DNA of 64,000 bases from Polyangiales bacterium (GTDB lineage: Bacteria > Myxococcota_A > Polyangia > Polyangiales > Ga0077539). Shown piece after piece: positions 35,914-62,990 of this stretch. The translations under genes were made by a program, and so were the position numbers. Position 1 is the stretch's first letter; every line of letters begins with the position of its first letter. The notes beneath the pieces are model-generated. The model worked only from the letters and a program-made list of their open reading frames with translations, searched no databases and was not told where the DNA came from. The stretch is from contig JBGARZ010000003.1 in NCBI GenBank assembly GCA_044229975.1, positions 320,001 through 384,000 on the forward strand, read 5' to 3'.

Positions 35914-38361
35914 ATGGCGCTGTTTGGATCGAGCCGCTCTCCCCTCCAGAAGGTGAAGGAAGCGCAGTGGCGCACCGACGAGGAGAAGCTCGCCGCGCTC
36001 TCTGCGCTGCGCGAAGACCACTCCGTCAAGCCCGCGGAGCTCATCGTGCTCTTCTGGGTCGCCGACGTGACCGTGCGCCAGGCCGCCGCGTCCATCTACA
36101 TCGGGCGCGCCGACGCGAAGTCCGTCGCGCTGCTCTTCTCCGAGATGCAGTCCCAGCACGCCGCGGCCAAGACCTTCGCCCAGCGCGTCATCGCCCGGCT
36201 CTCCACGCAGCTCGTCGCCCCGGCCATCGAGGAGCTGCTCCGCGACCCCAACCCCATGCGCCAGCGCGTCGGCTGGGAGACCGCCCTCGAACTCCCCGCC
36301 CGCGAGCGCATGCCCTACGCCCGCCGCGCCCTCAAGGACGCCCCGTCCGCGATGCGCGTCACCGCCCTCCAACGCCTCGCCGCGGACCACGGGGCCGACG
36401 CCATCCTCGACGACCTCATGGCCCTCGCGCGCGACCCCGACGACCGCTTCCGCGAGCGCGTCATCGAGACGCTCGCCTCGCTGGAGAAGCCCCGCGCCGA
36501 CGTCACCGAGCTCATGCTCGAACGCTTCGCCCAGGACAACGCCTCCGTCCGCGCCCACGCGCTCAAGGCCATCCAGCTCGCGAGCCAGCGCGACCCCGCC
36601 GGGCTCCAGCCGCGGCTCTACAAGCTGCTCGCCGAAGGGGACGACGCCATCCGCCGCATCGCGGTCGACATCCTCTTCTCCACGGGGAAGCCCGAGGCCG
36701 TGCTGACGGAGATCCTCCAGCAGTCGCGCACCATGGTCGGCTGGCTGCGCACCCGCATCCTCAACACCCTCAAGACCTTCGGCGACGACGTACTTCGTCC
36801 CGCGGTGCACCTCCTCGACCACGCCGACGAGGAGGTTCGGATGCAGGCCCTCGTGCTCGCCGAGCACTTCGAAGACCCGCGCCTCGTCGGCCCCGTGGTG
36901 AAGCTCCTCGACGACCACGACTGGTGGCTCCGCATCACCGCCTGCGAGACCCTCGGCAAGCTCAAGGACGAGCGCGTCGTCCCGCATCTGGTGAAGGCCC
37001 TCGGCGACCCCGACACCCGCTGGGCCGCCATCGACGCGCTCGGCAGCATCGGCGGCGAAGGCGCCCTGCGCGCGCTCGTCGACCTGCTCAAGGACGAGCG
37101 GCCCGAGGTGCGCCTCGAAGTGCTGCGCGCCTGCGCGCGATCGAAGGACCCGCGCATGATCAAGCTCTTCCAACGCGTCATGGAGGGCGACGCCGACCAG
37201 GAGGTGCGGACGCGCGCGGCGGAGATGTTCCGCGAGGTGGGCGGGGTGGTGGGCCGCGAGCAGACCGCCGCCGTGAGCAGCGAGCGCATCGCGCAGCCGC
37301 TCGACAAGCTGCTGGCCCTCGGGCGCGAGCGCGGGGCCTCGGACATCCACGTCACCGTCGGCGAGCCGCCCTTCCTCCGGGTGGCGGGCGTCATCGAGCG
37401 CGTCGACTCTGCCGTCCTCGACGCCGCCGCGTGCGAGGCGCTCATCACCGCCATCATCGACCCGGTGCGCCGCAAGGCCCTCGACGCCGACGGCGAGGTC
37501 GACTTCTGCCACGCCGTCCACGGCGTCGGGCGCTACCGGGCCAACGCGTTTCGACAGCGCAAGGGGCTGTGCGCGTCGTTCCGTTGCATCCCCAACATCC
37601 CGCCGACCTTCGCCGACCTTCGGCTGCCAGGGCAGCTCACCGAGCTGCTCGACTACCACCAGGGGCTCATCCTCGTGACGGGCCCGGCGGGCGGCGGCAA
37701 GAGCACCACCCTCGCCGCCATCATCAACCTCATCAACGAGACCAAGAGCGACCACGTCATCACCCTCGAAGACCCCATCGAGTTCGTTCACCTCGCGAAG
37801 TCGTCACTGGTCAACCAGCGCGAGGTGGGCCGACACACCGGGAGCTTCGCCCGCGCCCTGCGCGCCGCCCTGCGCGAAGACCCCGACGTCATCATGGTCG
37901 GCGAGATGCGCGACGTGGAGACCATCCGCATGGCCATGACCGCCGCCGAAACCGGGCACCTCGTCATCGCCACGATGCACACGACGAGTGCGGTCGCGAC
38001 GGTCGATCGCCTCATCGAGAGCTTTCCCCCCGATGAGCAGGCGCAGGTGCGCATGGGCCTCTCCGAGAGCCTCAAATACGTCGTGTCCCAGAGCCTCGCG
38101 CCGCGCGCCGACGGCAAGGGGCGCGTCGCCGTCTACGAGGTGCTCAAGGGCACCATGAACGTGGGGACCATGATCCGCGACCAGAAGACCTACCAGCTCC
38201 CGAGCCTCATGCAGATCAACCGCAGCGCCGGGATGCAGACGCTCGATCAGAGCCTCGAAGACCTGCTCGACGCCGGGCTCATCACCGCGGAGTGGGCCTA
38301 CGGCCGCGCCGAGCGCAAGGAGCCCTTCGAGGCGCGCCTCTCGGCGGGAGCGTCGGCGTGA
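35914..38361 (+). CDS. HEAT-repeat / PilT-family ATPase fusion
   Basis: About 450 aa of HEAT/PBS-lyase repeats (DHDWWLRITACETLGKL, DERPEVRLEVL), then ASDIH, GPAGGGKSTT, EDPIE, REDPDVIMVGEMRD, GHLVIATMHT. Confidence 0.9.
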   Translation: MALFGSSRSPLQKVKEAQWRTDEEKLAALSALREDHSVKPAELIVLFWVADVTVRQAAASIYIGRADAKSVALLFSEMQSQHAAAKTFAQRVIARLSTQLVAPAIEELLRDPNPMRQRVGWETALELPARERMPYARRALKDAPSAMRVTALQRLAADHGADAILDDLMALARDPDDRFRERVIETLASLEKPRADVTELMLERFAQDNASVRAHALKAIQLASQRDPAGLQPRLYKLLAEGDDAIRRIAVDILFSTGKPEAVLTEILQQSRTMVGWLRTRILNTLKTFGDDVLRPAVHLLDHADEEVRMQALVLAEHFEDPRLVGPVVKLLDDHDWWLRITACETLGKLKDERVVPHLVKALGDPDTRWAAIDALGSIGGEGALRALVDLLKDERPEVRLEVLRACARSKDPRMIKLFQRVMEGDADQEVRTRAAEMFREVGGVVGREQTAAVSSERIAQPLDKLLALGRERGASDIHVTVGEPPFLRVAGVIERVDSAVLDAAACEALITAIIDPVRRKALDADGEVDFCHAVHGVGRYRANAFRQRKGLCASFRCIPNIPPTFADLRLPGQLTELLDYHQGLILVTGPAGGGKSTTLAAIINLINETKSDHVITLEDPIEFVHLAKSSLVNQREVGRHTGSFARALRAALREDPDVIMVGEMRDVETIRMAMTAAETGHLVIATMHTTSAVATVDRLIESFPPDEQAQVRMGLSESLKYVVSQSLAPRADGKGRVAVYEVLKGTMNVGTMIRDQKTYQLPSLMQINRSAGMQTLDQSLEDLLDAGLITAEWAYGRAERKEPFEARLSAGASA

Positions 38362-40106
38362 GCAACGAGCGACGGCCGTCCCGCAAGCCCCCTGGTGCGC
38401 CCGTGCGCGAAGAGCGCGTCGGCGGCATCCGCGAAGAGCGCATCGGCCCCGTCGACGCCCGCGCCGAGCGTTCGTCCACGCGACCCGGCAAGCCGCCGTC
38501 CCTTCGACCGGGAGCGCCCCGCGAAGAGCGCTTCGGGGGCATCCGCGAGGAGCGTGTGGGCCCGCGCACCAACGCCCTCGCCGAGGAGATCGTCCGTCGC
38601 CCCGCCAAGACCATTCCGCCCGCGCGCCCGCCCGGTGAGGCCCCGCGACGCACCGGCAAGACCGTGCCCCCAGCGCGCCCGCCGGAGGAGTCCGTGGCCC
38701 GCCCGCGGAAGTCCGTGCGGCCCGGTGGGCAGCCGAAGCCGGTGCCCGCGCCGACGCTCCCCGCGCCGCCCGAGCACGATGTGGTGATCCCCGCGCGGCC
38801 GCTACTGCCGACGGGCGTTCTGCCCAACGCGATCTACGTCCAGAAGTCACCACTGAGCCCGCCGCGGATGCCCGGCGCCCCCATCGCGCAAGCGCCCGTC
38901 GCGCAGCGGCCCGCCACGCCCGCGCCGATGCCTGCGGTCGCGCCGGCGCCGGCTCCAGTCGCGCCCGCGGTGGTGGCGGTGAAGCCCGCGCTCTCCAACG
39001 TCGCGCCCGGCACGCCGGGACAGAACCGCATCGACCGCTTCCTCAAGCTGATGAACGACCGCGGCGCGAGCGACCTGCACCTGTCGGTGGGTCGTCCGCC
39101 CATCTTCCGCTTGAGCGGGCGCATGGAGCCCATCCGCTACCGGACGCTCGACCGTTCGGACTTCACGCAGCTCCTCGAGGCCATCACCCCGGCGCACCTG
39201 TGGGCGGAGTTCGTGGAGACCGGCGACGTGGACTTCGCGTACGAGATTCCCAACGTGTCGCGCTTCCGCGTCAACCTCTTCCGCCAGGAGCGCGGTGACG
39301 CCGCGGTGCTGCGGGTGATCCCCACGAAGCTGATGACGGTGGCGCAGCTCGGGTTGCCCGAGTCCATCCGCAAGATCGTCCACCTGCGCTCGGGTCTGGT
39401 GCTGGTGACGGGGCCGACGGGGTCGGGCAAGAGCACCACGCTCTCGGCCATCATCAACGAGATGAACGAGACCCGTCGCATGCACTTCGTCACCATCGAA
39501 GACCCGATCGAGTTCGTTCATCCCAACAAGAAGTCGCTGATGTCGCAGCGCGAGATCGGGCCGCACTCCAGGAGCTTCTCCACGGCCTTGCGCGCCGCCG
39601 TGCGCGAAGACCCCGACGCCATCCTCGTCGGCGAGATGCGCGACCTGGAGACCATCTCCATGGCCCTCGCGGCGGCCGAGACCGGCGTGCTGGTCTTCGG
39701 GACGCTCCACACCAACTCGGCGGCCAAGACCATCGACCGCGTGGTCAACGTGTTTCCGGCCGATCGTCAGCCGGGCGTTCGCGGGACGCTGGCATCCGTG
39801 CTGAAGGGCGTCGTGGCGCAGCAGCTCCTGCGCAAGAAGAAGGGCGGTCGCTGCGCGGCGGTGGAGATCCTGTTCGGGAGCAACGCGATGGCGTCGATGA
39901 TCCGCGACGGCAAGTCGAACCAGATCTCCGGGCTCATCAAGCTCGGCAAGAAGGACGGCATGATCGCCATGGACGACGCGCTCAAGGCCCTGGTGGACGA
40001 CGAGTCCATCGAGCCACTGGCGGGCCTGGAGAAGGCCATCGACAAGGACGACTTCCGCAAGTGGCTGAAGGAGCGGGGCATCGCGGCGCCGGACGACGCG
40101 CACTGA
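38358..40106 (+). CDS. pilT: PilT-family ATPase with Pro/Arg-rich N-terminal extension
   Basis: GTGA overlap with the previous stop; ASDLHL, GPTGSGKSTT, EDPIE, REDPD..LVGEMRD, GTLHTNSA. Confidence 0.88.
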   Translation: MSNERRPSRKPPGAPVREERVGGIREERIGPVDARAERSSTRPGKPPSLRPGAPREERFGGIREERVGPRTNALAEEIVRRPAKTIPPARPPGEAPRRTGKTVPPARPPEESVARPRKSVRPGGQPKPVPAPTLPAPPEHDVVIPARPLLPTGVLPNAIYVQKSPLSPPRMPGAPIAQAPVAQRPATPAPMPAVAPAPAPVAPAVVAVKPALSNVAPGTPGQNRIDRFLKLMNDRGASDLHLSVGRPPIFRLSGRMEPIRYRTLDRSDFTQLLEAITPAHLWAEFVETGDVDFAYEIPNVSRFRVNLFRQERGDAAVLRVIPTKLMTVAQLGLPESIRKIVHLRSGLVLVTGPTGSGKSTTLSAIINEMNETRRMHFVTIEDPIEFVHPNKKSLMSQREIGPHSRSFSTALRAAVREDPDAILVGEMRDLETISMALAAAETGVLVFGTLHTNSAAKTIDRVVNVFPADRQPGVRGTLASVLKGVVAQQLLRKKKGGRCAAVEILFGSNAMASMIRDGKSNQISGLIKLGKKDGMIAMDDALKALVDDESIEPLAGLEKAIDKDDFRKWLKERGIAAPDDAH

Positions 40107-46233: not shown

Positions 46234-48336
46234 GTGGAATCCACCGCCAACCGAGGACAACGCATCGCCCAGCGCTTCGAGCTCGACGCCCTCCTCTCGG
46301 ACGTCGGCCTCGGTGAGTGCTGGAGCGCGCAGGATCTCCAGCGCCCCGACTCTCCGGCGCAGGTGGAGTTCTTGAGCGCGCCGACGGCGAGCGGCCCGGC
46401 GACGCGTGAAGCCTTCGAGGCGCACATCACGCGGCTGCGCCCGGTGAGCAACCCCGGCCTCCTCGGGGTCATCGCCGGCGCCGAGGTGGACGGTCGGTTG
46501 GTGGTGGTGACCGAGCGCCTCGAAGGCCGCTCGCTCTCCAACTGGATCGCCGGGCACAAGCAGGCGGGCACCCGACCGAGCTTCACGGTGGTGCAGCGCA
46601 TCTTCGACAAGGTGTGCAACGCGATGCAGTTCGCCCACGGGGTGTCGCCGCAGCCGGTGGTGCACCGCGCGCTCACCCCGCGCAGCATCCTCCTGCGTCG
46701 GATGAGCCCGGGGCAGCACCACGTGAAGGTCGGCGACTTCGGGCTCGCGCCGTTTTCGCCGGGCGCGCGCACCGGCACCATCGGCGCGTGGTGGGAGTAC
46801 CAGGCCCCCGAGCAGCACGGCGGCCGCTGGAACGAACCGCCCACCGCCGACGTCTTCGCCCTCGCGGTGGTGCTCACCGAGCTGCTCACCCTCTCCGCGC
46901 TGCCGCGCTCGGAGGGCCGCGAGACCTGGTGGCAGTACGTCAAGGAGAGCCGGGCCTCGGCCGCCGATCGCCTGCTGCAACTCCGGCAGGATGTTCCGCG
47001 CGCGGTGTGGGAGGCCATCGGGGCCGCGATGAAGCCGTCGCCCAAGGAGCGCACCGCGTCGGTGCAGCGCTTCCAGCGGGCCGTCCGCGACGCGTGGCAG
47101 GCCGCCGGCGAGTGGCAGACCACCGCGGGCACCGAGGCCGAACCACCGACTCCCACCAGCGTCTCGGACAACACCTCGCTCGTCCGCGCAGCGCCAGGGG
47201 CCTACGGCTCGGGCACCTCCATCGACGGCTGGCAGGCCCCCGAACGCCTCCAGGTTCCGCAATCGCCGACGCGACCCTCGATGCCCGACCCGGCGCCCGC
47301 GCGGTCGTCCGAGCCGCTGATGCACTACCCCGAGGCGCCCTTCGCGACGCCGGTCGATCCGCCCCAGTGGCAGCCCGCGCCCGCCAACGCCGCGCCCGCG
47401 CTACGTCAGGCCGTCTCCGAGTCGACGGAGATGATCGACCTCGCCCAGCACGGCGCCTTCACGCGCCCCTCCATCGATTCGCTGGTGCGGCAGGAGAGCA
47501 CCATGGCGCTCGACATCGCGTCGCTCGACCCGCGCTCGTTCGCGCACCCCGCCAACCAGTACGGCACCGTCGTCGAGGGACAGCACCCGTCGTCGATGCT
47601 CTTCGGTGACTCCTTCGAGGGTGGCTCCGACCTCGACCCGGGCGTCGGCACCCAGGTGATGTCCCAGCCCCTCGGCGGCGACACCGAGCCGCCTCCGCCC
47701 GACCCCTACGACGACGTCCCGCCGCCCGACGCGTCCAACACCACCCGCGCCATCGACACGGCCGAAGCCTTCGCGCAGCTCGATCGGCAGGCCGGTCGGC
47801 CCCCGGCCGCGGCCATGGCCACCATGAAGGCCCCCGTCTCGTCGCGCGGGTTCAAGCCCACCGCGCCGCGCCGCGACCCGGTCGACCCCGACCTCCTCGC
47901 GACCCGACCCATGCAGGCCATCCGCCCGGCGACCATGGCGCCCAACGGCTTCTTCCCTTCGGCCGTGCAGCCCGGCGGCGACCCGTCCGGTGACCCCTTT
48001 GCGCGCCCGTCGCTCTCGGGTGACCCCTTCGGCGGCGACCCCTTTCGCCCGGCCTCGTCGGTTCCGTCGCAGCCGCCCGTCGAACCCACCATGGCCATCC
48101 CCATCGAGGCCATGCTCGCCGGGTCGCAGCCCCCCTACGGTCGTCCGTCCAACCCGGGCGCGCCGATGCCCACAGCTTTCGCGATGGGCGCCCCGCCGCG
48201 CACGTCCGAGTCCCTCTCGTCGCCGAAGCCCGCGTCCACCATCGCAGGCCAGCCCGCCTGGATCATGATCGCCATCGGCCTGCTCATCATCGTGAGCGTC
48301 GGCGCGTCGGCCTTCCTGCTCTCGGGCGGTCGCTGA
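46234..48336 (+). CDS. Hanks-type Ser/Thr kinase-like protein, predicted pseudokinase, with Pro-rich linker and C-terminal TM
   Basis: Kinase subdomains are recognisable (VHRALTPRSILL, VKVGDFGL, YQAPEQ, ADVFALAV), but the VAIK Lys, HRD Asp and catalytic-loop Asn are replaced. Confidence 0.85.
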   Translation: MESTANRGQRIAQRFELDALLSDVGLGECWSAQDLQRPDSPAQVEFLSAPTASGPATREAFEAHITRLRPVSNPGLLGVIAGAEVDGRLVVVTERLEGRSLSNWIAGHKQAGTRPSFTVVQRIFDKVCNAMQFAHGVSPQPVVHRALTPRSILLRRMSPGQHHVKVGDFGLAPFSPGARTGTIGAWWEYQAPEQHGGRWNEPPTADVFALAVVLTELLTLSALPRSEGRETWWQYVKESRASAADRLLQLRQDVPRAVWEAIGAAMKPSPKERTASVQRFQRAVRDAWQAAGEWQTTAGTEAEPPTPTSVSDNTSLVRAAPGAYGSGTSIDGWQAPERLQVPQSPTRPSMPDPAPARSSEPLMHYPEAPFATPVDPPQWQPAPANAAPALRQAVSESTEMIDLAQHGAFTRPSIDSLVRQESTMALDIASLDPRSFAHPANQYGTVVEGQHPSSMLFGDSFEGGSDLDPGVGTQVMSQPLGGDTEPPPPDPYDDVPPPDASNTTRAIDTAEAFAQLDRQAGRPPAAAMATMKAPVSSRGFKPTAPRRDPVDPDLLATRPMQAIRPATMAPNGFFPSAVQPGGDPSGDPFARPSLSGDPFGGDPFRPASSVPSQPPVEPTMAIPIEAMLAGSQPPYGRPSNPGAPMPTAFAMGAPPRTSESLSSPKPASTIAGQPAWIMIAIGLLIIVSVGASAFLLSGGR

Positions 48337-48388
48337 CGCGCGGGGCGCATTGACGCCGCACCGGGCCCTGTGATGCCATCCGAGACCG

Positions 48389-48796
48389 ATGCCCCCAGCC
48401 GCTCGCCTTGGTGACAACCACGTCTGCCCGAAGGTCGAACCCGGCCCCGTCCCTCACGTCGGCGGCCCCATCCTCCCGGCGTGTGAGCCCACGGTGCTCA
48501 TCGGCAACAAGGCCGCCGCCCGCGTCGGCGACATGGCCCAGTGCAACGCGCCCCCCGACAGCATCAAGATGGGCGAGCCCACGGTGCTCATCAACAACAA
48601 GCAGGCCGCCCGCCTCGGTGACCCCACCAACCACGGCGGGGTGATCGTTCAGGGAGAGCCCACCGTGCTCATCGGGTCGGTCTCGCAGGGCGCCGTGCTC
48701 AAGGCCGCCGCGAAGGCCGGCGTGCCGTTCTGCGAAGAGTGCGAGAAGGCCAGGGCGCGCATGCGCAACTCCACGGCCACCGCCGCGGCCCACTGA
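48389..48796 (+). CDS. PAAR spike-tip protein with C-terminal tail
   Basis: PAARLGD.H.CP, AAARVGD, QAARLGD...HGG; tail KAAAKAGVPFCEECEKAR. Confidence 0.93.
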   Translation: MPPAARLGDNHVCPKVEPGPVPHVGGPILPACEPTVLIGNKAAARVGDMAQCNAPPDSIKMGEPTVLINNKQAARLGDPTNHGGVIVQGEPTVLIGSVSQGAVLKAAAKAGVPFCEECEKARARMRNSTATAAAH

Positions 48797-48836
48797 GCGT
48801 CTGCCGAGCGCTCCCTCTCCTCCAACACCGCCCACC

Positions 48837-49397
48837 GTGTCCGAACGACCCGAGTTCACCGATCGCATCGAGCATGTACGGTGGGTGCTACAGCAGCACC
48901 CGGCGCCGATGTTCGCGCTCGTCGACGCGGCCCGCGACGACCTCGTGCTGCCGACGGTGCTCCAGTCGGGTCTGCTCCACCGCTCGCTCTACGAAGGCTG
49001 GCAGGGCGAAGGGCTGTCGGACGTGGCGCCCTACCTCGTCGAGGTCCGGTCAGGTGACCCCTTCCTCGACACGCTCCTCGAACGCGGCTGGGGCGATAGC
49101 TGGGGGACGTTCCTGTTTTCGACGGAGGACTTCTTCTCGCTGCGCCGCCACCTCCGGCGCTTCTTGAAGGTGCAGTCCGAGGACGGCAAGAAGCTCTTCT
49201 TCCGCTACTACGACCCGCGCGTGCTCCGCAGCTACCTCCCGACGTGCACCCCCGACGAGCTCGCCCACTTCATGGGCCCCATCTCCTGGTGGGTCACCGA
49301 GGGCCACCGCGGCGAGACCCTGCTGCGCTTCACCCGCGGCGACGACGGCGTGCGCTGCGACACCGAGCCGCTGCCCGAGCCGCCGCCCGACCGCTGA
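48837..49397 (+). CDS. DUF4123 (Tec/Tap-1-type) T6SS effector adaptor
   Basis: FALVDAA, SLY, VAPYLV, WG, LRRHLRRFL.V...DG....FRYYDPRVL. Confidence 0.92.
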   Translation: MSERPEFTDRIEHVRWVLQQHPAPMFALVDAARDDLVLPTVLQSGLLHRSLYEGWQGEGLSDVAPYLVEVRSGDPFLDTLLERGWGDSWGTFLFSTEDFFSLRRHLRRFLKVQSEDGKKLFFRYYDPRVLRSYLPTCTPDELAHFMGPISWWVTEGHRGETLLRFTRGDDGVRCDTEPLPEPPPDR

Positions 49398-49426
49398 CCC
49401 TCCCTCCCCCTGCCACAAGGCGCGCC

Positions 49427-50332
49427 ATGATCCTCAACCTGACGATCCTCAACGGAACCCACGCGGGCCACGCGGTGCAGATCTCCGCCGGCACGCCTCG
49501 CACCTTCGGCCGCGCGGCGCAGTCCGACGTGGTGCTCCAGGACGTCTACCTGTCCGACGTGCACTTCGCCCTCTACTGCGACGAGCAGGGCGCTCGCGTG
49601 CGCGACCTCCAGTCCCACAACGGAACCTTCCTCAACAACGCCCAGGTCACCGACGCCACGCTCAACAGCGGCGACCGCATCTCGGCCGGGCAGACCCTGT
49701 TCGAGGTCGCCCTCACCAGCCACGTTCTGGAGGTCCCCCCGAGCGCCGGCACCGACACGGGCGAGATCACCGCCGAAGACCTCATGCGCGGGATGCAGAG
49801 CGCCCCGCACGACTGCGCCCGCTGGGCCCTGCACGCCGAGGAGGGCAACTACTTCGCGATCATCGACTGCGCGCGCGGGCCCGACCTCATCACGCTGGTC
49901 AACCGCATCGAGGAGGAGTTCTGCGCCGTCGACGAGACGCGCGAGCCCGACGACCTCGGCGAGACGGCGCCCTTCCTCGTCGCGCTCACCCCGGCGTCGG
50001 ACGGCCTCGCCGACGTCTTCGAGGAGACCTGGGGCAACGGGTCGGCGATCTTCCTGGTGAGCGATCGACCGTTCATCGAGATCTACCAGCACCTCATCTC
50101 GCTGGTGACCTGGGACGATCAGGCCCGCCTCAACTCGGCGCCCTTCTGGGACCCGGCGCGCCTCGCCGATCACCTCGCCCGCTGCACCCCGGAGCAGGTC
50201 GAGCACTTCTTCGCGCCGCTCACCTGCCTCCTCGCCGAGAGCAACGACCCCCGGGTGATGACCCGCTACGCCCGCTCCCCCGAAGGCGCCGTCACCGCGA
50301 CCCCCATCGCGATGACCCTCCAGAACGCGTAG
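49427..50332 (+). CDS. FHA domain / DUF4123 fusion protein
   Basis: FHA: FGR, LSDVHF, VRDLQSHNGTFLN, GD.I..G. DUF4123: FAIIDCAR, APFLV, WG, HL..L, FWDP. Confidence 0.85.
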   Translation: MILNLTILNGTHAGHAVQISAGTPRTFGRAAQSDVVLQDVYLSDVHFALYCDEQGARVRDLQSHNGTFLNNAQVTDATLNSGDRISAGQTLFEVALTSHVLEVPPSAGTDTGEITAEDLMRGMQSAPHDCARWALHAEEGNYFAIIDCARGPDLITLVNRIEEEFCAVDETREPDDLGETAPFLVALTPASDGLADVFEETWGNGSAIFLVSDRPFIEIYQHLISLVTWDDQARLNSAPFWDPARLADHLARCTPEQVEHFFAPLTCLLAESNDPRVMTRYARSPEGAVTATPIAMTLQNA

Positions 50333-50343
50333 CCCGCGCGACC

Positions 50344-51144
50344 TCAGCGCAGCCCGCGCAGGCTCCCCTCGAAGCGGCCCACCATGATCGGAAACCGCAC
50401 CGCCTTGCCCTCCTCGTCGGGCTCGGTGCGCACCACCCCGCGGCCGTCCTTCGCGACGCACTCCAGCATCCGTCCGCCCGCGACCAGTCGATAGTCGAAC
50501 TGCTCGGCCACCAGCGGCGCCATCGCAAACGTCGGCTCGGCGAACATCTCGGCCAGCGCGGCCTCCGCGGCACGCTGCCGATCGGCCAGCGCCACGTCGA
50601 AGGCGATGCACACCTCGCGGTGGGCGATCTCGTTGTGCGCCCAGAACCCCGGGAAGCTCTTGCGCGCCAGGGCGCCGTGCATCGACTGCACGTAGCGCGT
50701 GGCCTCCTGCAGGAGCGCGCCGTCCATCTGAAGCACCTCTGCCCGCTCCCACGCCCAGGGCCCGAGGACGTCCTCGAACACGTGGGTCGCCCGCACCACG
50801 CGCGGAAACTCCAACGCACCATCGGCGAGCGTCTCGCCGAAGCGGAAGAGCGAGACCGTGTCGGGCTCACCCGGCTGCGTCCCCGGCGGGCAGCGCGCGG
50901 CATGCACCTTCACCGCGACGCCATCGCCCGGCAGCGTGCGCTTCTCGGTGCGGGCCACCGACGGCGTGGAGCCCGGGTTGATCACCACCTCGAAGAGGTT
51001 CTCTCCGCGAATGAGAACGTGATCGACCTGATGCATTCCCCCGCCGGCCGCCGCGGGCACCCGGAAGATCGGGATGTCATTGACCCAGACCTCGACGTCA
51101 CAGCCCTCGACGTCGACGTCGAGCACCACCAATGAGCGCGCCAT
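50344..51144 (-). CDS. Hypothetical protein, candidate immunity protein
   Basis: GAGG RBS; directly downstream of the candidate effector; N-terminal CDVEVWVNDIPI...GEN; no signal peptide. Confidence 0.65.
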   Translation of the reverse strand: MARSLVVLDVDVEGCDVEVWVNDIPIFRVPAAAGGGMHQVDHVLIRGENLFEVVINPGSTPSVARTEKRTLPGDGVAVKVHAARCPPGTQPGEPDTVSLFRFGETLADGALEFPRVVRATHVFEDVLGPWAWERAEVLQMDGALLQEATRYVQSMHGALARKSFPGFWAHNEIAHREVCIAFDVALADRQRAAEAALAEMFAEPTFAMAPLVAEQFDYRLVAGGRMLECVAKDGRGVVRTEPDEEGKAVRFPIMVGRFEGSLRGLR

Positions 51145-51166
51145 ATCGAATGAACCCTCTTTGGTC

Positions 51167-52837
51167 CTATCCAGGGAAGCGGAGCGGGCCGCCGATCTTG
51201 GTCTTCTGCATCACCATGTAATCGACGTCGGCGTCGATGAAGGAGACCACCACCGCCTTGCCCTTCAGGGTGATGCCCTTGAACTCGATCTTGCTCACCA
51301 TGATGCCGAGGCCCTGCTGGTCGAAGCCGACGTTGCCGTCCGTCTCGAAGCCGGTCTCCACGCCCGCCTTCAACGAGAGCACGCGATCATGGATGAGCAT
51401 CCCCTTCGCGTAGAGCGACGCCGGGATGTCGCTCTTGAAGCGAGCGTGCTTCCACTCTGCTTCCTTGATGGACTTGCGCTCGATGTCCTGAGACACCGTC
51501 AGGCTGCCGTCGATCTTTCCTTCGATGCCGGCCGTGAAGCCATAGCCCTTGATGGTCAGGTCGACGCCGAAGCCCACGCTGAAGGTCACCTTCACCAGCA
51601 CGAGGCGAACCGCGATGGAGTAGCCGAAGAACACCCGGTTATCGATCGACTCCTTGAAACCCCAGGTGGCCTTGAGCGAGCCCGTGAGCACCTCGACGCC
51701 GAAGGCCCAGTCCCAGCCCACCTTGGGCTTGTACTTCTTGATCGCGTCGTTCACGGCCGTGATGGCCGCGGCGATGTTGCGGAAGGTGTTGATCGCGGTG
51801 AGGATCCAGTCGAGACCCATCACCTTCACGTCGTTGCGCTTGAGCTCAACCTTGACGCGCGTTTCGATGTCCGTAGAGCCCTTGTCGTCAGGCCCCATGG
51901 TGCCCGGCGCGCGCGGGCCCACGGGCTTGTTCTCCGCCGTGCCCTTCCACTCCACCGTGCCGTTGTTGTTGGTGCGCGTGGCCGTCGCCGTCGCCGTGGT
52001 GTTCCGCAGGGCGACCGAGGCCGACCCGGTGGTGGTGACGACCCGGCCGCCGCCCGCCGTGTTGATGCCGTGCTTGATCGACGCGCTGAAGAACGACGGC
52101 GACGAGATCGACAGCTCCCACTGGTCATCGGGGTACGCCCGGATGACCGTGTGCTGTGAGCGCACCGCCGCGCCGACCTTGCGCCCGCCGCAGACCAGCG
52201 CCGAGATGCGATAGTCCTGATAGCCCCAGCGCACCGGCCAGATGTCGACGAAGCTGCCGACCTTGAGCCAGCCGATCTTCGCGTCGTCGGCCGCGCGCAC
52301 CTTGCGAAACACCGCCAGCGCGTGGGTCTTCTGTCCCTTGAACGTGGTCGCCTTCCCCAGCGGGTCGGTCAGCACCAGGTGCGGGTGCGTAAACTCCCCG
52401 CAGAACTGGTAGTCCTCTTCGATGACGATATCGAGATAGGTCTTGCGGGTATCCCGGGGGGAGCCCGCGGTCACCTCGATGATGGTCCCGGTGACGTAGG
52501 GGCTCGCCGTCTTGGTGCCCCGCGAATGGATCACGAAGGCCTGCGGCAGGAAGCGCTCCTTCGGCGGGGTCTCGTTGCCCACCCACGGCGCGTGCCCCTT
52601 GCCCACCTTGCGCTCGGTGAGCTTGAGGTCCTTCAGGTCACACAGGTTGACCTTGATCGGGAGCCCGCAGGGGAGCGTCCCCGTTCGCTGCGTGGGGCTC
52701 TGGCAGAGCCTCGCCTGCGCGTCCCGCTGGGCCGCCGCTCGTTGCGCCGCCGCCCGCTGCGCCGCCGCCCGCTGCGCCGCCCGCTGCTTCGCGAGGTCAG
52801 CCTCGGAAGGGCCGAAGAAATAGTCGTAGAGACCCAT
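51167..52837 (-). CDS. Hypothetical protein, candidate spike-delivered effector
   Basis: GGAG RBS; in the vgrG operon; QRAAA repeats; Lys/Gly-rich beta-strand C-terminal half; no known catalytic motif seen. Confidence 0.7.
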   Translation of the reverse strand: MGLYDYFFGPSEADLAKQRAAQRAAAQRAAAQRAAAQRDAQARLCQSPTQRTGTLPCGLPIKVNLCDLKDLKLTERKVGKGHAPWVGNETPPKERFLPQAFVIHSRGTKTASPYVTGTIIEVTAGSPRDTRKTYLDIVIEEDYQFCGEFTHPHLVLTDPLGKATTFKGQKTHALAVFRKVRAADDAKIGWLKVGSFVDIWPVRWGYQDYRISALVCGGRKVGAAVRSQHTVIRAYPDDQWELSISSPSFFSASIKHGINTAGGGRVVTTTGSASVALRNTTATATATRTNNNGTVEWKGTAENKPVGPRAPGTMGPDDKGSTDIETRVKVELKRNDVKVMGLDWILTAINTFRNIAAAITAVNDAIKKYKPKVGWDWAFGVEVLTGSLKATWGFKESIDNRVFFGYSIAVRLVLVKVTFSVGFGVDLTIKGYGFTAGIEGKIDGSLTVSQDIERKSIKEAEWKHARFKSDIPASLYAKGMLIHDRVLSLKAGVETGFETDGNVGFDQQGLGIMVSKIEFKGITLKGKAVVVSFIDADVDYMVMQKTKIGGPLRFPG

Positions 52838-52847
52838 CGGACGCTCC

Positions 52848-53231
52848 TCACTCCTCGGTCGCGTCGAGCGCGCCGAGCATGTCCTCGCAGAGCGCCTCGA
52901 CGCGCTCCATCAACTGGTCGACCTTCATCCGCCCGTCGAGACCTTCGCTCGTCAGCGTGTCGTTGGCCCAAGGCAGGTTGGGGTCTTCGTCGAACTGGGG
53001 GTGCAACAGCAACATCACGTCGCAGTAGCGCCCCACGTCGTACTCCGTGTCGATCTCGTACCGCGCGCAGCGCTCCATGCCGTGGGCGACGAAGCGCTCC
53101 AGGCCCTCCTCGCCCATCGCCGCGCACTCCTCGGGCCACACCCGTCGGAGGTGCGCGGTGACGTTCTCCACGAAGGGGTCCATCGCCGCGCGGGCGAGGG
53201 CGTCCATCTGCGCGCTGCGAATGACCAGCAC
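52848..53231 (-). CDS. Small acidic protein, candidate effector co-chaperone
   Basis: GTG start LVIRSAQMDAL...HLRRVWPE...RYEI...FDEDP.LPW; lies between vgrG and the effector. Confidence 0.72.
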   Translation of the reverse strand: MLVIRSAQMDALARAAMDPFVENVTAHLRRVWPEECAAMGEEGLERFVAHGMERCARYEIDTEYDVGRYCDVMLLLHPQFDEDPNLPWANDTLTSEGLDGRMKVDQLMERVEALCEDMLGALDATEE

Positions 53232-53238
53232 GTCGATC

Positions 53239-55947
53239 TCAGTGCGGCAGGAACAGCCGGTCGACCTGCTTGCCGATCACGCTGTCGAGCTGCTTCACGG
53301 CCTGCGCCGCGAGCTTCGCCGCCTGCGGGGGCAGGCCACGCCGGTCGATCCACCCTTGCAGCACCTCGCGACCCGCCGTCACCGCCGGGCCCTTGAGGAA
53401 GGCCGCGACGTCCGCGCCGTTGCGCTGCTTCAGCACCGTCCAGAACGGGTCGCGCGCCATGCCCTGATCGAGCCCCACCGCGCGCAGCGTGCCCCACGTC
53501 GCCGCGGTGGTGGTCACGCCCTTCAGCTCCTTCACGAGCCCGGAGAGCAGCGGGCTGTTCTTCACCCGGGGGTTGTTCTCCAGGCCCTTGAAGGCCTGGC
53601 CGACGAGGCCCTTCACCCCTTCGGTGATGGCCTCTTCGCCCGCCTTGAGCGCCGCGTCCTTGATCACCCCGAAGTTGGGCTTGCGGCCTTCCTTCAGCGC
53701 TGAGGCGAGCTCGGTCACGGTGGTCTTCGCGAGCCCCTGGAGGCGCTCGGAGATCTTGTCCGGCACGCCCGCCTTCGCGAGCAGCTTCTTCAGCCCCGCG
53801 CTCGCCTGCTCGCCCAGCTTCGCGGGGTCGATGGCGTTCTTCAGCTTGGCCAGCAGACCCCCAGAGGTGCCCTGGAGGCTCACCGCGGCCGCGACGGCGG
53901 TCTCCTGCGGCGCGACGGTGTTGCTGTCCGTCTCGCCGCAATTGATCTTCACCAGCGCGCCGTTGATGTTCACCAGCGACCCGCCGATGACGTGAATGGT
54001 CGGCGAGTTGATGGTGATCTTGTTGGGCAGCAGCATGATGCTCGACTCGCCCACCTTGAAGCCCATGCTCGACTCGGCCGTGACCGCGAAGTGCGTGTCG
54101 ACCCGCAGCGACGCGCCCGCCCCGCCGTGCACCGCGATGGAGCTGTTGCCCTCCACGTCCAGCGAGTCGTTCTGCACGATGCTGGTGATGCGGTCCTTCT
54201 GGACGGTGACGTGCTCGATGCCCTGGATGGTCTTGGTGCGGTCGTGGCCCACCACCAGCGTCTGGTCGTGGCGCACCACCGAGTCCATGTCGCGCTGCGC
54301 GTGGATGAAGATCTGCTCGTTGTCCTTGAGGTCTTCGAAGCGCAGCTCGTTGAAGCCCGCGCCGCCCTTCGACGAGCTCGTCTTGATGGTGCTCTTGGTC
54401 TTCTCCGCGGGCAGCGGGTACGGCGTGTTGTTCTCGCCGTTGTAGACGCAGCCCGTGACGAGCGGGCGGTCGGGGTCACCTTCGAGGAAGGTCACCACCA
54501 CCTCCATCCCGATGCGCGGGATGAACATCGAGCCCCACGCCGCGCCCGCCCAGCTCTGCGCCACGCGCATCCAGCACGACGACTTGCTCCCGTTCTGCGA
54601 CGGGCCGCGCATCTCGGGGCGATCCCAGTGGAAGCGCACCAGGATGCGCCCATGGAAGTCCGTCGAGATCTCCTCGTCGTCCTCGCCCGGCGCCGCGATC
54701 ACGAGCGCCGTCTGCGGCCCGTGCACCAGCGGCCGCGGGGTGTCCCGCTCCGGCCGGATCGGGGTGTCCGACGCCACGCACTCGAAGCGGTTCCAGTAGC
54801 GGGTGGCCATCGCGGCGCCGGCGGTGTCCGCGACGCTCTCCCACTCCGGCTCGATGTTGCGCAGCAGCGCCTTCACGTGCTCGCTCGTGCGGATGTCGTC
54901 GGGGATGTCGCCCCAGGCCGCGACGTGGTGCTGCACCCCGAGGAGCACATAGTTGCGATCGAGCTCGGGCCGCTGGTGGCCGGTGATGGTGATGCCGCGG
55001 CCGGGCCAGAAGCCCGTCACCGAGCTGCGGCCGTGACCGACCTTGTTCTCCACCTGCGTCTCGTCGAAGCGCACGCGCGCCCGGCGCTGACCGTGGTGCG
55101 GGCGATAGACGTGCGCATCCTCGTCGTAGGCGCCGAGGGTGAAGCGCGCGGGGTAGTCGTAGACGGGACGGGCGCCGCCATCACCGGGGCTGCGCGGGCT
55201 CATGTCGAGCACGGCGCGCGGGTGCGTGAAGTCGAAGTCGCGCAAGAGCACCCCGGTGGTGCCAGTGCGACGGTGCCAGTCGAACCACATCACGGTCTCG
55301 GCGCCCGACGTGGCCGACCCGGCGCCATCGATGATGCTGATGGCCCCGCCATCCATCGTCGGAACGGCCTCCCACGGGTGCCCGTCCTCCACGAGCTGCC
55401 AGGTCTCCGAATCGCCGTCGTGCTTGAAGTAGAACGCGACGCCCTCCTCTTCGAGCAGTCGCTGCACGAAGTCGAGGTCGGTCTCGCGGTACTGGAGGCA
55501 GTTTTCGCGCGGCGGGAGCTGGTCGAGCGCGCCCTCGTAGGCCATCGCCCCGTCACCCTGGTAGACGCCCGCGTCCTTGAGCACCTCCTGGATGATCGTG
55601 ATGACGTTGACGTCCTGCCAGATGCGCGAGTTGACGCGCTTGGACAGCTTCCAGAGGTGCGGAACCACCACGATGCGGGCGAAGCGGTACATGCCCGTCG
55701 ACCCGAGGTCTTCGACGCGGCGCACGACGCCCTTCAGCGGGCGCGAGACCGAGCCGCGCTGGATGTCGAGGCTGACGTTGCGCTCGAAGAGTTCTTCGAC
55801 GTTGGCGCCCACGTTGCGGTTGGCGAGGATGAGCGAGGCCTCGTAGAGCCGCGACATCCCCTCGTCGATGAACACGTGCACCGGACGCCAACCGCCACCG
55901 GGGCCCTCGAAAACAAGCTCAACCTCGGCGCGCGGCGCTTCGCTCAT
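53239..55947 (-). CDS. vgrG: VgrG/TssI spike protein with C-terminal extension
   Basis: QYRETDLDFVQRLLEEEG, GPQTA, GR..V.FHWD, SCWMRVAQSWAG, PRIGMEVVVTFLEGDPDRP, FNELRFED...EQIFIHAQRD, gp5-like beta-helix. Confidence 0.96.
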   Translation of the reverse strand: MSEAPRAEVELVFEGPGGGWRPVHVFIDEGMSRLYEASLILANRNVGANVEELFERNVSLDIQRGSVSRPLKGVVRRVEDLGSTGMYRFARIVVVPHLWKLSKRVNSRIWQDVNVITIIQEVLKDAGVYQGDGAMAYEGALDQLPPRENCLQYRETDLDFVQRLLEEEGVAFYFKHDGDSETWQLVEDGHPWEAVPTMDGGAISIIDGAGSATSGAETVMWFDWHRRTGTTGVLLRDFDFTHPRAVLDMSPRSPGDGGARPVYDYPARFTLGAYDEDAHVYRPHHGQRRARVRFDETQVENKVGHGRSSVTGFWPGRGITITGHQRPELDRNYVLLGVQHHVAAWGDIPDDIRTSEHVKALLRNIEPEWESVADTAGAAMATRYWNRFECVASDTPIRPERDTPRPLVHGPQTALVIAAPGEDDEEISTDFHGRILVRFHWDRPEMRGPSQNGSKSSCWMRVAQSWAGAAWGSMFIPRIGMEVVVTFLEGDPDRPLVTGCVYNGENNTPYPLPAEKTKSTIKTSSSKGGAGFNELRFEDLKDNEQIFIHAQRDMDSVVRHDQTLVVGHDRTKTIQGIEHVTVQKDRITSIVQNDSLDVEGNSSIAVHGGAGASLRVDTHFAVTAESSMGFKVGESSIMLLPNKITINSPTIHVIGGSLVNINGALVKINCGETDSNTVAPQETAVAAAVSLQGTSGGLLAKLKNAIDPAKLGEQASAGLKKLLAKAGVPDKISERLQGLAKTTVTELASALKEGRKPNFGVIKDAALKAGEEAITEGVKGLVGQAFKGLENNPRVKNSPLLSGLVKELKGVTTTAATWGTLRAVGLDQGMARDPFWTVLKQRNGADVAAFLKGPAVTAGREVLQGWIDRRGLPPQAAKLAAQAVKQLDSVIGKQVDRLFLPH

Positions 55948-60800: not shown

Positions 60801-61235
60801 CTACCAAGAAGCGCAGTACGGGCCACGACACGTCTCTGCGATACTGCTCCTTTCGCCGATGCCAGGACATGCGGCCCGCCACGACTCATACATGGCATCA
60901 AGTTCTTGCGTCCAACGGTGCCTCTCCTGTCGAGTCGAGTGCCGCCGAGGCGCCAGTCCCCACTCGACAAAGCGCCGCCGTCCATGGACAGATGTGACGT
61001 AATATTCTCGATCAGGAGTGCTGTCTGCGCAAATGAACCCTTGCCCTTCAGCCCGACAGGCCATCGGGCTGGGTATCCGTCGTTTCTCCAAGTCGTGCAC
61101 GACACATTGGTCGTCGAACGACGCAGATACCGGCACTCTGCGAACGAGGCCATCTACTGCGTAGCCGGAGCCGCAAGCCAACGCCATCGCGGCGATCACC
61201 GACGCAAAGCAGATGCCACGCAAGCGATTAGTCAT
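60801..61235 (-). CDS. Putative Rhs immunity lipoprotein
   Basis: ATG overlaps the Rhs stop (ATGA); lipobox ALAC; lower GC; 144 aa with several Cys. Confidence 0.72.
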   Translation of the reverse strand: MTNRLRGICFASVIAAMALACGSGYAVDGLVRRVPVSASFDDQCVVHDLEKRRIPSPMACRAEGQGFICADSTPDREYYVTSVHGRRRFVEWGLAPRRHSTRQERHRWTQELDAMYESWRAACPGIGERSSIAETCRGPYCASW

Positions 61236-62990
61236 CTTGGACACGAAATAGTAAAAGGACGGGGATTGACTATATCGCTGTACGGCCCTCTCTCCATGAA
61301 GTTCCACCGTGACAAGGGATCTCCACCTGGAAGGTCTTGGTCTCGGTTGCCAGGATTCACCCGATCCTGCACCGTCGAAATAAGCAGAGAGCTCCCCTGC
61401 CCGAGCAAACTCGCTGGTCCGAAAAACCAGCCCAGCAGTTGAGACTGCACGATGTGCTGATGCTCATGCTTGAGCAAGAGATAGGATGGATCCTCCCCCC
61501 GGATGAAGACCACGTTTCCGATCGTGTATGCCTGCTGGTTCCCGGAGGGAACGCCACTATTGTAGACATATATTGCGTAATCCGAGTATCCGCGACTCTC
61601 TTCCTCAGACCAGGGCTGAACGTCGACGTATGAATTCGGGCTATCACTATCGATCACGTGCCATACCAAATAAGCCCACAGGTTTGTGGGGCCCTCCCAG
61701 ATCGCATCCAAGTGACCTCCCCACATTTCACGCTCCTCACCAGCATGCAGACCCGTACGATCGACCGCGTTAACCGGGTCCCCCGCCACATATGCGTACA
61801 GATTCCGCCCATCGACCGCATCCCGCTCCCCCAGTGGATCCCTGGTGAGCCACTGCCGCAGCCGCGGCGAGTACACCCGTGCCGGCGCGAACACCAACCC
61901 CGTCGGCCGATGCACCACATGCCCGGTGAAGCCCATGTGCGTGTCGTACACCCCGAGCCCGCTGCCGGGCGCCGTCACCGTCTGCTCTCCCCACACCCCA
62001 TAGCGGTACGTCCGCACCCGATCGCCAGCGAGCGTCAGCCCCATCACGCTGCCGCGCACATCGCGCATCATCGCCAGGTGCTCGCCCCCCTGGTCGATCC
62101 CGTCCGCCCGGTAGACCCGCTCGATGGGCGTCTCCCCCGACTCCTCGATGCGCTCGCTCCGCAGCGTCCAGCCCCGCCACCGCAGCGTCACCGTCTGCGC
62201 GCCCTCCACCATCGACGTGAGCCGCCCGGTCGCGTCATAGCCGAAGGTCCAGCTCGCGCTGTCCGACACCCGCGTCACGCCCGTCAGCCGATCGCGCACG
62301 TCCCAAGCATAGGTGTACTCCCCGTCGCCCGTCACCCGACCGCGCGCGTCGTGCGTCAGCGTGTGCGTCGGTGACGCGCTCGGCCCCATCGCCCGCGTCA
62401 GCAGCCGGTCGCTCACCGAGAACGTCCGCCCCTCGATGACGTTCCACCCCCAGCCGCTTCCCCAGTCCTGATAGCGGTCGATGAGCGTCGTGTTGCCCCA
62501 CGCGTCGTAGTAGCTCCAGTTGCCGCTCTCCTGCACGTACGTTCCCGCGCCGTTGTTGACGTACTCCGAGTGAAACGACACCCGCCGCGCCGCGTTGTAG
62601 TAGGTGTACCGCCAGAGCACGTCGTCCCGCTCCGAGTTCACCCGTCCGTCGGCCGTGAACTCCAGCTCCGTCAGGCCCTGCCGCTGACTCGTCGTCGCGT
62701 TGAGCGTGCGCGCTCGCCACATCCGCAGGTCGTCTGACGTCGACTGGTAGAGGAAGTCCTGCACGCAGTTGGTGCGCGGCAGCGCCGCGAGCGACGGGCG
62801 GCGGGTCGTCGCCCCCGAACCGAAGGTGTAGCTGAGCACCGTCGCTGGGGGCGACGTCGCGTTGTTGACGAGGCCCGTCAGCCGGTCCGCCGAGTCGTAC
62901 TGGTAGGTCAGCGTCTCGCCGTCGTGCGTCACCGACGCGGCCCGACCGAGCACGTCGTGGGTAAACGACGCCGTGTCGGAGTCCGTCAGC
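61232..62990 (-). pseudogene. 5'-truncated (orphan) Rhs core with HExxH C-terminal toxin domain
   Basis: YD repeats, YRYGVWG, FTGH, ARVYSP...WLTRDP.G, NLYAYV.GDPVNAVDRTGL. The Rhs-like frame continues 5' to an in-frame TAG near 63005 with no convincing RBS or start. Confidence 0.8.

What the first reader, a model, noticed from the sequence alone, without database searches (positions are those of the whole stretch)
46234..55947. Core-less, convergent spike/effector-loading locus: pseudokinase-PAAR-DUF4123-FHA/DUF4123 facing immunity-effector-cochaperone-vgrG
Seen: two head-on gene arms that together encode a full warhead kit (PAAR, two DUF4123 adaptors, VgrG, a small acidic protein and a candidate effector/immunity pair). 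There are no hcp, sheath, baseplate or membrane-complex genes in the window. Known: DUF4123 proteins load effectors on VgrG or PAAR; the P. aeruginosa PAAR4-TecT-co-TecT-TseT arrangement uses a PAAR tail and a co-chaperone. Inference: this is an auxiliary module for a T6SS or other contractile system encoded elsewhere, with an added phospho-signalling layer (FHA plus kinase-fold protein) on effector loading. I do not know of such a layer being described. This is the best candidate for a new system in the window.
Basis: partly seen in the sequence, partly recalled or inferred. Interest (0 to 1): 0.85.

Follow-up and report, generated by a model that had tools for sequence, protein, structure and literature searches.

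The report
Dual-adaptor type VI toxin-loading island
This is a satellite gene island of an ordinary bacterial type VI injection system whose core genes lie elsewhere in the same genome; it likely loads an unknown toxin on the spike through a known kind of split adaptor, and adds a second adaptor predicted to grip a new spike extension, while the proposed phosphorylation control remains untested.

Summary
All eight genes are real and as described. 'Core-less' is ordinary: the genome has every T6SS core gene, scattered over several contigs. The two arms are one operon split and flipped: 10 of 69 related loci outside the family, including Minicystis rosea, run vgrG-PAAR-DUF4123-small gene-556-aa family-266-aa family in one direction. 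The small acidic gene is the split-off C-lobe of two-lobed DUF4123 adaptors (20 of 25 gammaproteobacterial loci carry it fused), so this works like P. aeruginosa PAAR4-TecT-co-TecT. FHA-DUF4123 fusions are already noted in print (PMC7714669). New here: a second, family-specific DUF4123 kept 1:1 with a VgrG bearing a new ~210-aa helical extension (equal copy number in 29 of 31 genomes) and predicted to bind it (0.75 vs control 0.01); a membrane-anchored pseudokinase clade that sits beside PAAR or vgrG in several arrangements; and an unnamed effector/immunity candidate pair. The kinase lacks catalytic residues, so it cannot be the phosphate writer; a phospho-layer is possible, not shown. Verdict: new variant of a known kind, interest 0.42.

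The parts
46234..48336 (+). Membrane-anchored pseudokinase (kinase fold ~1-290, Pro-rich linker with T-x-x-hydrophobic motifs, C-terminal membrane helix); loosely linked accessory
48389..48796 (+). PAAR spike tip with a short conserved C-terminal tail carrying a cysteine pair (C115, C118); relatives append cell-wall-lytic or other domains after the tail
48837..49397 (+). DUF4123 type a: short, N-lobe-only adaptor (TecT-like); FHA-fused in most other myxobacterial loci
49427..50332 (+). FHA-DUF4123 type b: family-specific second adaptor; FHA keeps R29, S43, H46, N65; DUF4123 part predicted to bind the VgrG extension
50344..51144 (-). 266-aa acidic cytoplasmic protein in the immunity slot; beta-sandwich plus NTF2-like domain; unnamed family of at least 432 clusters
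51167..52837 (-). 556-aa basic protein in the effector slot; low-confidence model with an Ig-like domain and a long beta-sheet with a helical hairpin; no known family, activity unknown
52848..53231 (-). 127-aa acidic protein homologous to the C-terminal lobe of two-lobed DUF4123 adaptors (co-TecT-like)
53239..55947 (-). T6SS VgrG with a family-restricted ~210-aa basic helical C-terminal extension (about residues 690-902, window 53242-53880)

Best explanation
The locus is a satellite island of the genome's own type VI secretion system that likely builds one spike with two adaptor modules: a split DUF4123 pair that would load the 556-aa candidate toxin on the PAAR tail, and a second FHA-DUF4123 predicted to bind a new helical extension of VgrG. 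Module A (like P. aeruginosa PAAR4-TecT-co-TecT-TseT-TsiT): DUF4123a binds the PAAR tail, the 127-aa protein supplies the missing effector-binding lobe, the 556-aa protein is the cargo and the 266-aa protein its immunity; homology and gene order are shown, each binding step is inferred from the published mechanism. Module B: DUF4123b binds the VgrG extension as chaperone or tether (co-retention shown, binding predicted). Its FHA probably binds a phosphothreonine partner, but the partner is unknown; the pseudokinase is a plausible membrane scaffold, not the kinase that writes the mark.
For: Core T6SS in the genome: tssE,J,K,L,M,tagF,tssA,B,C,clpV on C39, tssF,G and a second Clp ATPase on C11 about 250 kb away, three hcp, 16 VgrG matches. 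One-direction operon vgrG-PAAR-DUF4123a-127-556-266 in 10 of 69 non-family loci, Minicystis rosea among them. 127-aa profile hits the C-terminal part of full-length DUF4123 proteins in 20 of 25 loci fetched from a gammaproteobacterial order (up to 74 bits); Pfam confirms DUF4123 in 6 of 6 of those tested. The gene after 127-aa homologues encodes WHH/colicin-type nucleases followed by SMI1/KNR4 immunity (L105, L108, L150), pesticin-like lysozymes (L058, L060, L062), lipase-like, deaminase-like or PAD proteins elsewhere. DUF4123b and VgrG extension have equal copy numbers in 29 of 31 family genomes, 9 of them zero-zero, including 3:3 and 2:2 cases and unlinked pairs; they stay face to face when the middle cassette is lost (G005, G008). 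Complex prediction: 0.75, best of 3 controls 0.01; that mark was reached by 116 of 157 solved complexes and 2 of 215 mismatched pairs; runs agree in at least 79% of contacts; partner pLDDT at least 82; interface includes columns invariant in both alignments.
Against: No experiment shows any binding, secretion or toxicity. The 556-aa protein has no recognisable toxin domain, its model is poor (pLDDT 57) and it is conserved over its whole length. 266-aa homologues also occur without a 556-aa homologue (G012, G019 loci; one orphan copy on C38 of this genome; next to unrelated 548-587-aa proteins in L051, L055, L066), so 'immunity' rests on position. Homology of the 127-aa protein to co-TecT itself was not tested. 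The complex job had no DUF4123a control, close cousins can pass, my own alignments were used, and DUF4123-VgrG-tail binding is a published type of contact, so the pass may reflect likeness. Two genomes break the 1:1 count (G008 2:1; G009 1:0, contig ends inside the cassette). Congruent trees of the pair are expected from linkage and kinship alone.
Confidence: 0.72

Rival explanations
1. Phospho-gated loading at the membrane: another Ser/Thr kinase phosphorylates threonines in the linker of the membrane-anchored pseudokinase, the FHA of DUF4123b docks there and holds the VgrG near the membrane until the signal arrives. This adds to the best explanation rather than replacing it.
For: FHA type b keeps all three motifs in 7 of 10. 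Of 20 pseudokinase-clade hits (E<1e-100), 13 lie within 9 kb of PAAR or vgrG on one contig and 3 more do so across contig ends; geometries differ (upstream of PAAR, divergent from vgrG, upstream of another vgrG). The clade is found only in vgrG-bearing genera. In this genome 3 of 24 kinase ORFs without the catalytic motif versus 3 of 191 with it lie within 6 kb of a spike gene. Linker has 7 T-x-x-hydrophobic motifs against 3.5 expected (p 0.04), several kept across genera. FHA-phosphothreonine control of T6SS assembly is established (PMC3953482, passages).
Against: Ten of the linked cases (genera g1, g8) share one inherited position behind hmgA. Genus g2 keeps the pseudokinase 45 kb away or on another contig; genus g7 has the island without the clade. 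In the four g5 loci with a pseudokinase and DUF4123b together, DUF4123b has no FHA. None of 69 non-family loci has a pseudokinase within 7 kb. The linker motif excess is not unusual: z 1.6, and 5 of 77 Pro-rich kinase tails exceed z 2. Of the 10 next-best kinase hits examined, 9 are pseudokinases and only 2 touch spike genes.
Confidence: 0.22
2. The VgrG extension is itself the toxin (an evolved VgrG) and DUF4123b is its dedicated cytoplasmic chaperone or antidote; FHA is a phospho-independent scaffold or vestige, and the pseudokinase is a bystander or independent T6SS accessory.
For: The extension is basic and helical (net +12); VgrG plus FHA-DUF4123b persist alone when the effector cassette is lost (G005, G008) and the VgrG stands alone in most g5 genomes; the two genes are on opposite strands; FHA on type a adaptors is mostly degenerate.
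Against: No toxin motif or solved relative for the extension; no membrane-spanning stretch (max 19-residue hydropathy 1.14); DUF4123 proteins are published as tethers, not antidotes (PMC11582642).
Confidence: 0.2
3. The island feeds an extracellular contractile injection system or a new machine, not the T6SS.
For: Core genes are scattered and none is in the window; an orphan fused sheath-like gene exists on C19.
Against: VgrG scores 476 bits on the T6SS model; a full T6SS core is present; no phage-type sheath match was found in this 93% complete genome.
Confidence: 0.03

Closest known systems
P. aeruginosa PAAR4-TecT-co-TecT-TseT-TsiT (Burkinshaw 2018, not read; described in the discussion of PMC11582642, passages seen; gene order recalled)
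   Same: PAAR with a C-terminal extension, N-lobe-only DUF4123, a separate small protein equal to the C-lobe, then effector and immunity slots.
   Different: Cargo is an unnamed beta-rich protein, not a nuclease; the operon is split into convergent arms; a second DUF4123, an FHA domain, a VgrG extension and a pseudokinase are added.
Tap6/Tap14 DUF4123 adaptors on VgrG6/VgrG14 (PMC11582642; passages and section 9 read)
   Same: DUF4123 N-lobe binding a C-terminal extension of its own VgrG; the cysteine pair noted for those tails is seen in the PAAR tail here.
   Different: DUF4123b has no C-lobe, carries FHA, and the VgrG extension is a ~210-aa helical domain without the cysteine-pair tail; predicted contacts lie at its start and middle, not at the C-terminal end.
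FHA-DUF4123 multidomain adaptors (PMC7714669; passages)
   Same: FHA is reported as the commonest extra domain on DUF4123 proteins (1.1%), mechanism undetermined.
   Different: The passages seen do not separate the two DUF4123 types or name partners; supplements were not opened.
PpkA-Fha(TagH)-TssL threonine phosphorylation pathway (PMC3953482; passages)
   Same: Membrane-anchored kinase fold plus an FHA protein with intact Arg/Ser at a T6SS locus.
   Different: The kinase fold is dead and has no periplasmic sensor; FHA is on an adaptor, not on TagH (the genome has separate TagH-like genes on C32 and C19).

Membership tests
T6SS satellite vgrG/PAAR island | T6SS-type VgrG and PAAR | tested here: met
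   TIGR03361 476 bits (cut-off 186); PF05488 88.8 bits
T6SS satellite vgrG/PAAR island | Core machine encoded elsewhere in the genome | tested here: met
   tssA,B,C,E,J,K,L,M,clpV on C39; tssF,G on C11; three hcp
T6SS satellite vgrG/PAAR island | Toxic effector with cognate immunity gene | tested here: inconclusive
   Slot holds known toxin-immunity pairs in other loci; this pair has no known domain
Split DUF4123 adaptor (TecT/co-TecT type) | DUF4123 limited to the N-lobe | tested here: met
   186 aa, domain at 26-143, versus 265-316 aa two-lobed forms
Split DUF4123 adaptor (TecT/co-TecT type) | Separate gene for the effector-binding C-lobe | tested here: met
   127-aa profile hits C-terminal part of full-length DUF4123 in 20 of 25 loci
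Split DUF4123 adaptor (TecT/co-TecT type) | PAAR with a C-terminal extension | tested here: met
   Conserved tail with cysteine pair in most of 12 aligned PAARs
Split DUF4123 adaptor (TecT/co-TecT type) | Sequence homology to co-TecT itself | not tested
   No named P. aeruginosa sequence was fetched
Split DUF4123 adaptor (TecT/co-TecT type) | Physical PAAR-adaptor-co-adaptor-effector complex | not testable with these tools
   Needs pull-downs; the one complex job went to the VgrG pair
PpkA-Fha phospho-regulation | Catalytically competent Ser/Thr kinase | tested here: not met
   Beta-3 Lys, HRD Asp and catalytic-loop Asn missing across the clade
PpkA-Fha phospho-regulation | FHA with phosphothreonine-binding residues | tested here: met
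   R29, S43, H46, N65 present; 7 of 10 type b keep all motifs
PpkA-Fha phospho-regulation | Phosphorylation controls secretion | not testable with these tools
   Experiment needed
Imm-NTF2 immunity proteins | Sequence match to the Pfam family | tested here: not met
   0 of 135 family members hit it at E<=0.01
Imm-NTF2 immunity proteins | NTF2 fold | tested here: inconclusive
   C-domain aligns to NTF2-like chains, best Z 8.1 (rmsd 3.0, 101 aligned), near the level common for unrelated models
Extracellular contractile injection system | Phage-type sheath and eCIS gene cluster | tested here: inconclusive
   PF04984 not found in a 93% complete genome; tube and other eCIS markers not searched

The most novel reading that the evidence does not exclude
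A lineage of myxobacteria gates spike assembly by phosphorylation: membrane-anchored pseudokinases act as phosphothreonine docking posts, an FHA-bearing DUF4123 clamps a new VgrG extension and parks the spike there, and the split adaptor lets scattered C-lobe-plus-effector cassettes (five 127-aa-type loci in this genome) compete for one PAAR. This would be signal-controlled choice of warhead, a step not described in the papers searched.
Probability: 0.2. Interest if true: 0.72.

Novelty: new variant of a known kind. Interest (0 to 1): 0.42.

Why it matters
It extends the split-adaptor route from one Pseudomonas case to a widespread myxobacterial operon and gives a marker (the 127-aa C-lobe family) that points at effector slots, including an unnamed effector/immunity candidate family present in a cultured strain, Minicystis rosea. 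It gives the unexplained FHA-DUF4123 fusion a concrete predicted partner. If the FHA-pseudokinase link holds, threonine phosphorylation would control which spike is loaded, not only whether the machine assembles.

Tried and rejected
New machine or eCIS: rejected, T6SS core complete; PF04984 not found. Active kinase cascade in the locus: rejected by motifs. Function of the 556-aa protein: no Pfam/NCBIfam hit, no usable Atlas hit, no PDB sequence hit, no Foldseek match at E<=0.001, best VIA Z 7.9 with rmsd 7.1 to beta-barrels, too weak to call a pore. 266-aa protein: Atlas look-alikes unnamed, Foldseek none, PDB profile none below E 0.019. Longer fused forms of the 127-aa protein were not found by word search (49, weak), profile comparison with five Photobacterium/Pokkaliibacter C-lobes was inconclusive (probability 3.5%), plasmid tblastn had no match; the genome profile search then found fusions. 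VgrG extension: not found in 199 of 200 other class genomes sampled, the one hit being a family member; no solved relative. Promoter/terminator scan: nothing above shuffles. Sequencing runs: no RNA holder listed. Earlier scan findings: none. Tree congruence (114) not counted as co-evolution. Alignment A6 held two rows in the wrong frame and was replaced by A7. Literature: 8 searches listed no paper on FHA-DUF4123 function or T6SS pseudokinases; most subscription papers are not in the library, and the M. xanthus PAAR paper was not held.

Full report
Observation. The eight genes are present at the stated place and orientation. Pfam and NCBIfam give a weak protein-kinase fold, PAAR, DUF4123, FHA plus DUF4123 on the plus strand, and three proteins without family (266, 556, 127 aa) plus a T6SS-type VgrG on the minus strand. 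Flanks are housekeeping genes (homogentisate pathway on the left; aldo-keto reductase and Hsp33 on the right). GC is like the rest of the window except a dip to 0.63 over the 556-aa gene. Relatives are labelled Myxococcales, Polyangiales or Deltaproteobacteria metagenome bins in their record titles.

Core machine. The genome (10.0 Mb, 93% complete) holds tssE, J, K, L, M, tagF, tssA, B, C and clpV on contig C39, tssF, tssG and another Clp ATPase on C11, three hcp genes on three other contigs and 16 VgrG matches. None of 11 core proteins hits inside the window. A core-less vgrG/PAAR island is therefore the normal state in this genome; satellite islands are described for P. aeruginosa too (PMC7376260, passages).

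The two arms are one operon. In the family, FHA-DUF4123 was found in 17 of 24 genomes and 0 of 16 from other families. Of 20 loci fetched, 5 keep the window's seven-gene order; others lose the middle cassette, move vgrG or flip parts. Of the 69 outside the family, 38 carry FHA fused to DUF4123 type a and 10 show vgrG-PAAR-DUF4123a-127-556-266 in one direction (L112, L113, L117, L122, L123 Minicystis rosea, L126, L128, L138, L141, L152); L148 is convergent like the window.

The small gene is a split adaptor lobe. PMC11582642 (passages and section 9) shows DUF4123 adaptors have an N-lobe that binds a C-terminal extension of VgrG or PAAR and a C-lobe that binds the effector, and that TecT and co-TecT are the two lobes as separate genes. 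A profile of 28 homologues of the 127-aa protein hit 20 of 401 genomes of a gammaproteobacterial order (33 matches, 25 fetched). In 20 of the 25 loci the hit is the C-terminal part of a full-length DUF4123 protein, mostly right behind vgrG (Pfam confirms 6 of 6 tested). Two earlier attempts were blank or inconclusive. The PAAR tail carries a conserved cysteine pair, a feature that paper notes for VgrG tails.

Effector and immunity slots. Behind 127-aa homologues lie WHH or colicin-type nucleases followed by SMI1/KNR4 proteins (L105, L108, L150), pesticin-like lysozymes (L058, L060, L062), lipase-like, deaminase-like and PAD proteins; many others have no family. This assigns the 556-aa protein to the effector slot and the 266-aa protein to the immunity slot by position. 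The 556-aa model is weak (pLDDT 57; Ig-like domain then a long beta-sheet). The 266-aa model is strong (pLDDT 97.6; beta-sandwich plus NTF2-like domain, best Z about 8) and the family is large (432 clusters) but unnamed. NTF2-fold immunity proteins exist (PMC3482391, passages), but this family does not match them by sequence. Against a simple pair: 266-aa homologues also occur without a 556-aa homologue.

A second module on VgrG. DUF4123b is a distinct type. The VgrG has a ~210-aa helical extension found in 21 of 31 family genomes and in no non-family genome among 200 sampled. Counting DUF4123b hits at E<=1e-30, copy numbers agree in 29 of 31 genomes (9 with none of either; G042 3:3; G019, G043, G044 2:2; exceptions G008 and G009), also where the genes are unlinked. 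A complex prediction of DUF4123b (112-301) with the extension scored 0.75 against a best control of 0.01; this mark was reached by 116 of 157 solved complexes and 2 of 215 mismatched pairs; runs agreed in at least 79% of contacts and partner pLDDT was at least 82. Contacts centre on DUF4123b R132/W133 and on extension residues that include invariant columns. This supports binding but does not show it; no paralogue control was run and the contact type resembles a published one, though my PDB sequence searches found no solved relative of DUF4123a or of the extension.

The phospho-layer. The kinase-fold protein lacks the catalytic lysine, aspartate and asparagine and ends in a membrane helix, so it cannot write the phosphate; the genome has 191 kinase ORFs with the catalytic motif by my simple gene caller and pattern. 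Its clade (20 hits, E<1e-100) occurs only in vgrG-bearing genera: 13 lie within 9 kb of PAAR or vgrG, 3 more across contig ends, 2 are elsewhere, 2 cannot be judged; three geometries occur in genus g5. That is more than inherited order, but ten cases are one inherited position, genus g7 lacks the clade, and where pseudokinase and DUF4123b meet in g5 the FHA is absent. The linker's T-x-x-hydrophobic motifs (FHA preference recalled, not from a call) are mildly enriched (7 vs 3.5, p 0.04) but not unusual among kinase tails. Among the next 10 kinase hits examined, 9 are pseudokinases and 2 touch spike genes. The window's FHA is intact (7 of 10 type b keep all motifs) while type a FHAs are mostly degenerate (3 of 40). 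FHA on DUF4123 is already recorded without mechanism (PMC7714669, passage; supplements not opened), and FHA-phosphothreonine control of T6SS assembly is known (PMC3953482, passages).

Verdict. Shown: gene content, T6SS context, operon unity, C-lobe homology, co-retention of DUF4123b with the VgrG extension, dead kinase. Predicted: DUF4123b-VgrG binding. Inferred: PAAR-adaptor-effector loading, toxicity, immunity. Speculative: phospho-gating. It works like the TecT/co-TecT route and belongs to the satellite T6SS islands; it is not a PpkA-Fha system. Eight literature searches (listings only unless cited above) showed no paper on the second module or on T6SS pseudokinases, within a library that lacks most subscription papers. 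New variant of a known kind; interest 0.42.

Noticed in passing
G000 C23:97308-98072 (L008:9309-10073), C33:225870 (L010:7871-8242), C11:665893 (L089:6894-7274), C2:216905 (L090:5906-6229): Four more 127-aa-type genes (one a tandem double) stand without DUF4123, each before a large unknown protein (450-884 aa); possible satellite effector cassettes that share one adaptor N-lobe.
   Followed up: partly
L080:7486-12221 (G000 C32:824485-829220): A 624-aa vgrG flanked by two kinase-fold genes with C-terminal membrane helices, one with and one without the catalytic motif.
   Followed up: partly
L015:401-1918 (G000 C20:456400-457917): Another membrane-anchored pseudokinase directly beside a DUF6484-DUF2169-PAAR-like-AHH nuclease-Imm11-vgrG island.
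   Followed up: partly
L252:4269-8467 (G000 C19:482269-486467): Orphan TagH-like FHA gene two genes before a 547-aa protein with both TssB-like and TssC-like matches, away from the core cluster.
   Followed up: partly
L005:8174-13171 (G000 C32): vgrG faces a TagH-like FHA gene, an extended PAAR and a 206-aa gene head-on: convergent layout recurs in this genome.
   Followed up: no
L011:7312-7800, L012:6870-7358, L013:6738-7226: All three hcp genes are lone genes among housekeeping genes on different contigs; none is in the core cluster.
   Followed up: no
L048, L049, L050, L053, L054, L057, L059: PAAR orthologues append VgrG3-like lysozyme or CHAP/NlpC-like domains after the conserved tail, so one PAAR can be both adaptor dock and fused effector.
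   Followed up: partly
L058:4748-5194, L060:10944-11390: PAAR with the tail motif duplicated in tandem, in loci with two DUF4123 genes (one search shows it for L058).
   Followed up: no
L050:8158-10818, L054:8925-11570: An 882-887-aa protein without Pfam match follows FHA-DUF4123b in two g5 genomes.
   Followed up: no
L129, L132-L135: Nannocystis loci encode 620-640-aa proteins with about 360 extra residues before FHA-DUF4123.
   Followed up: no
window 61232-62953 (-): Short Rhs-repeat gene (573 aa) with a weak eCIS_core-like match and a low-GC neighbour (GC 0.59 at 61-62 kb); looks like an orphan Rhs toxin fragment with a possible immunity gene.
   Followed up: no
window 35914-40106 (+): Two tandem PilT-like ATPase genes, one with HEAT repeats; in genus g8 the vgrG arm lies beside this pair.
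   Followed up: no
L040-L043 between pseudokinase and PAAR: The gap is an insertion hot spot in the genus: sodium/proton antiporter, restriction-modification pair and other genes.
   Followed up: no
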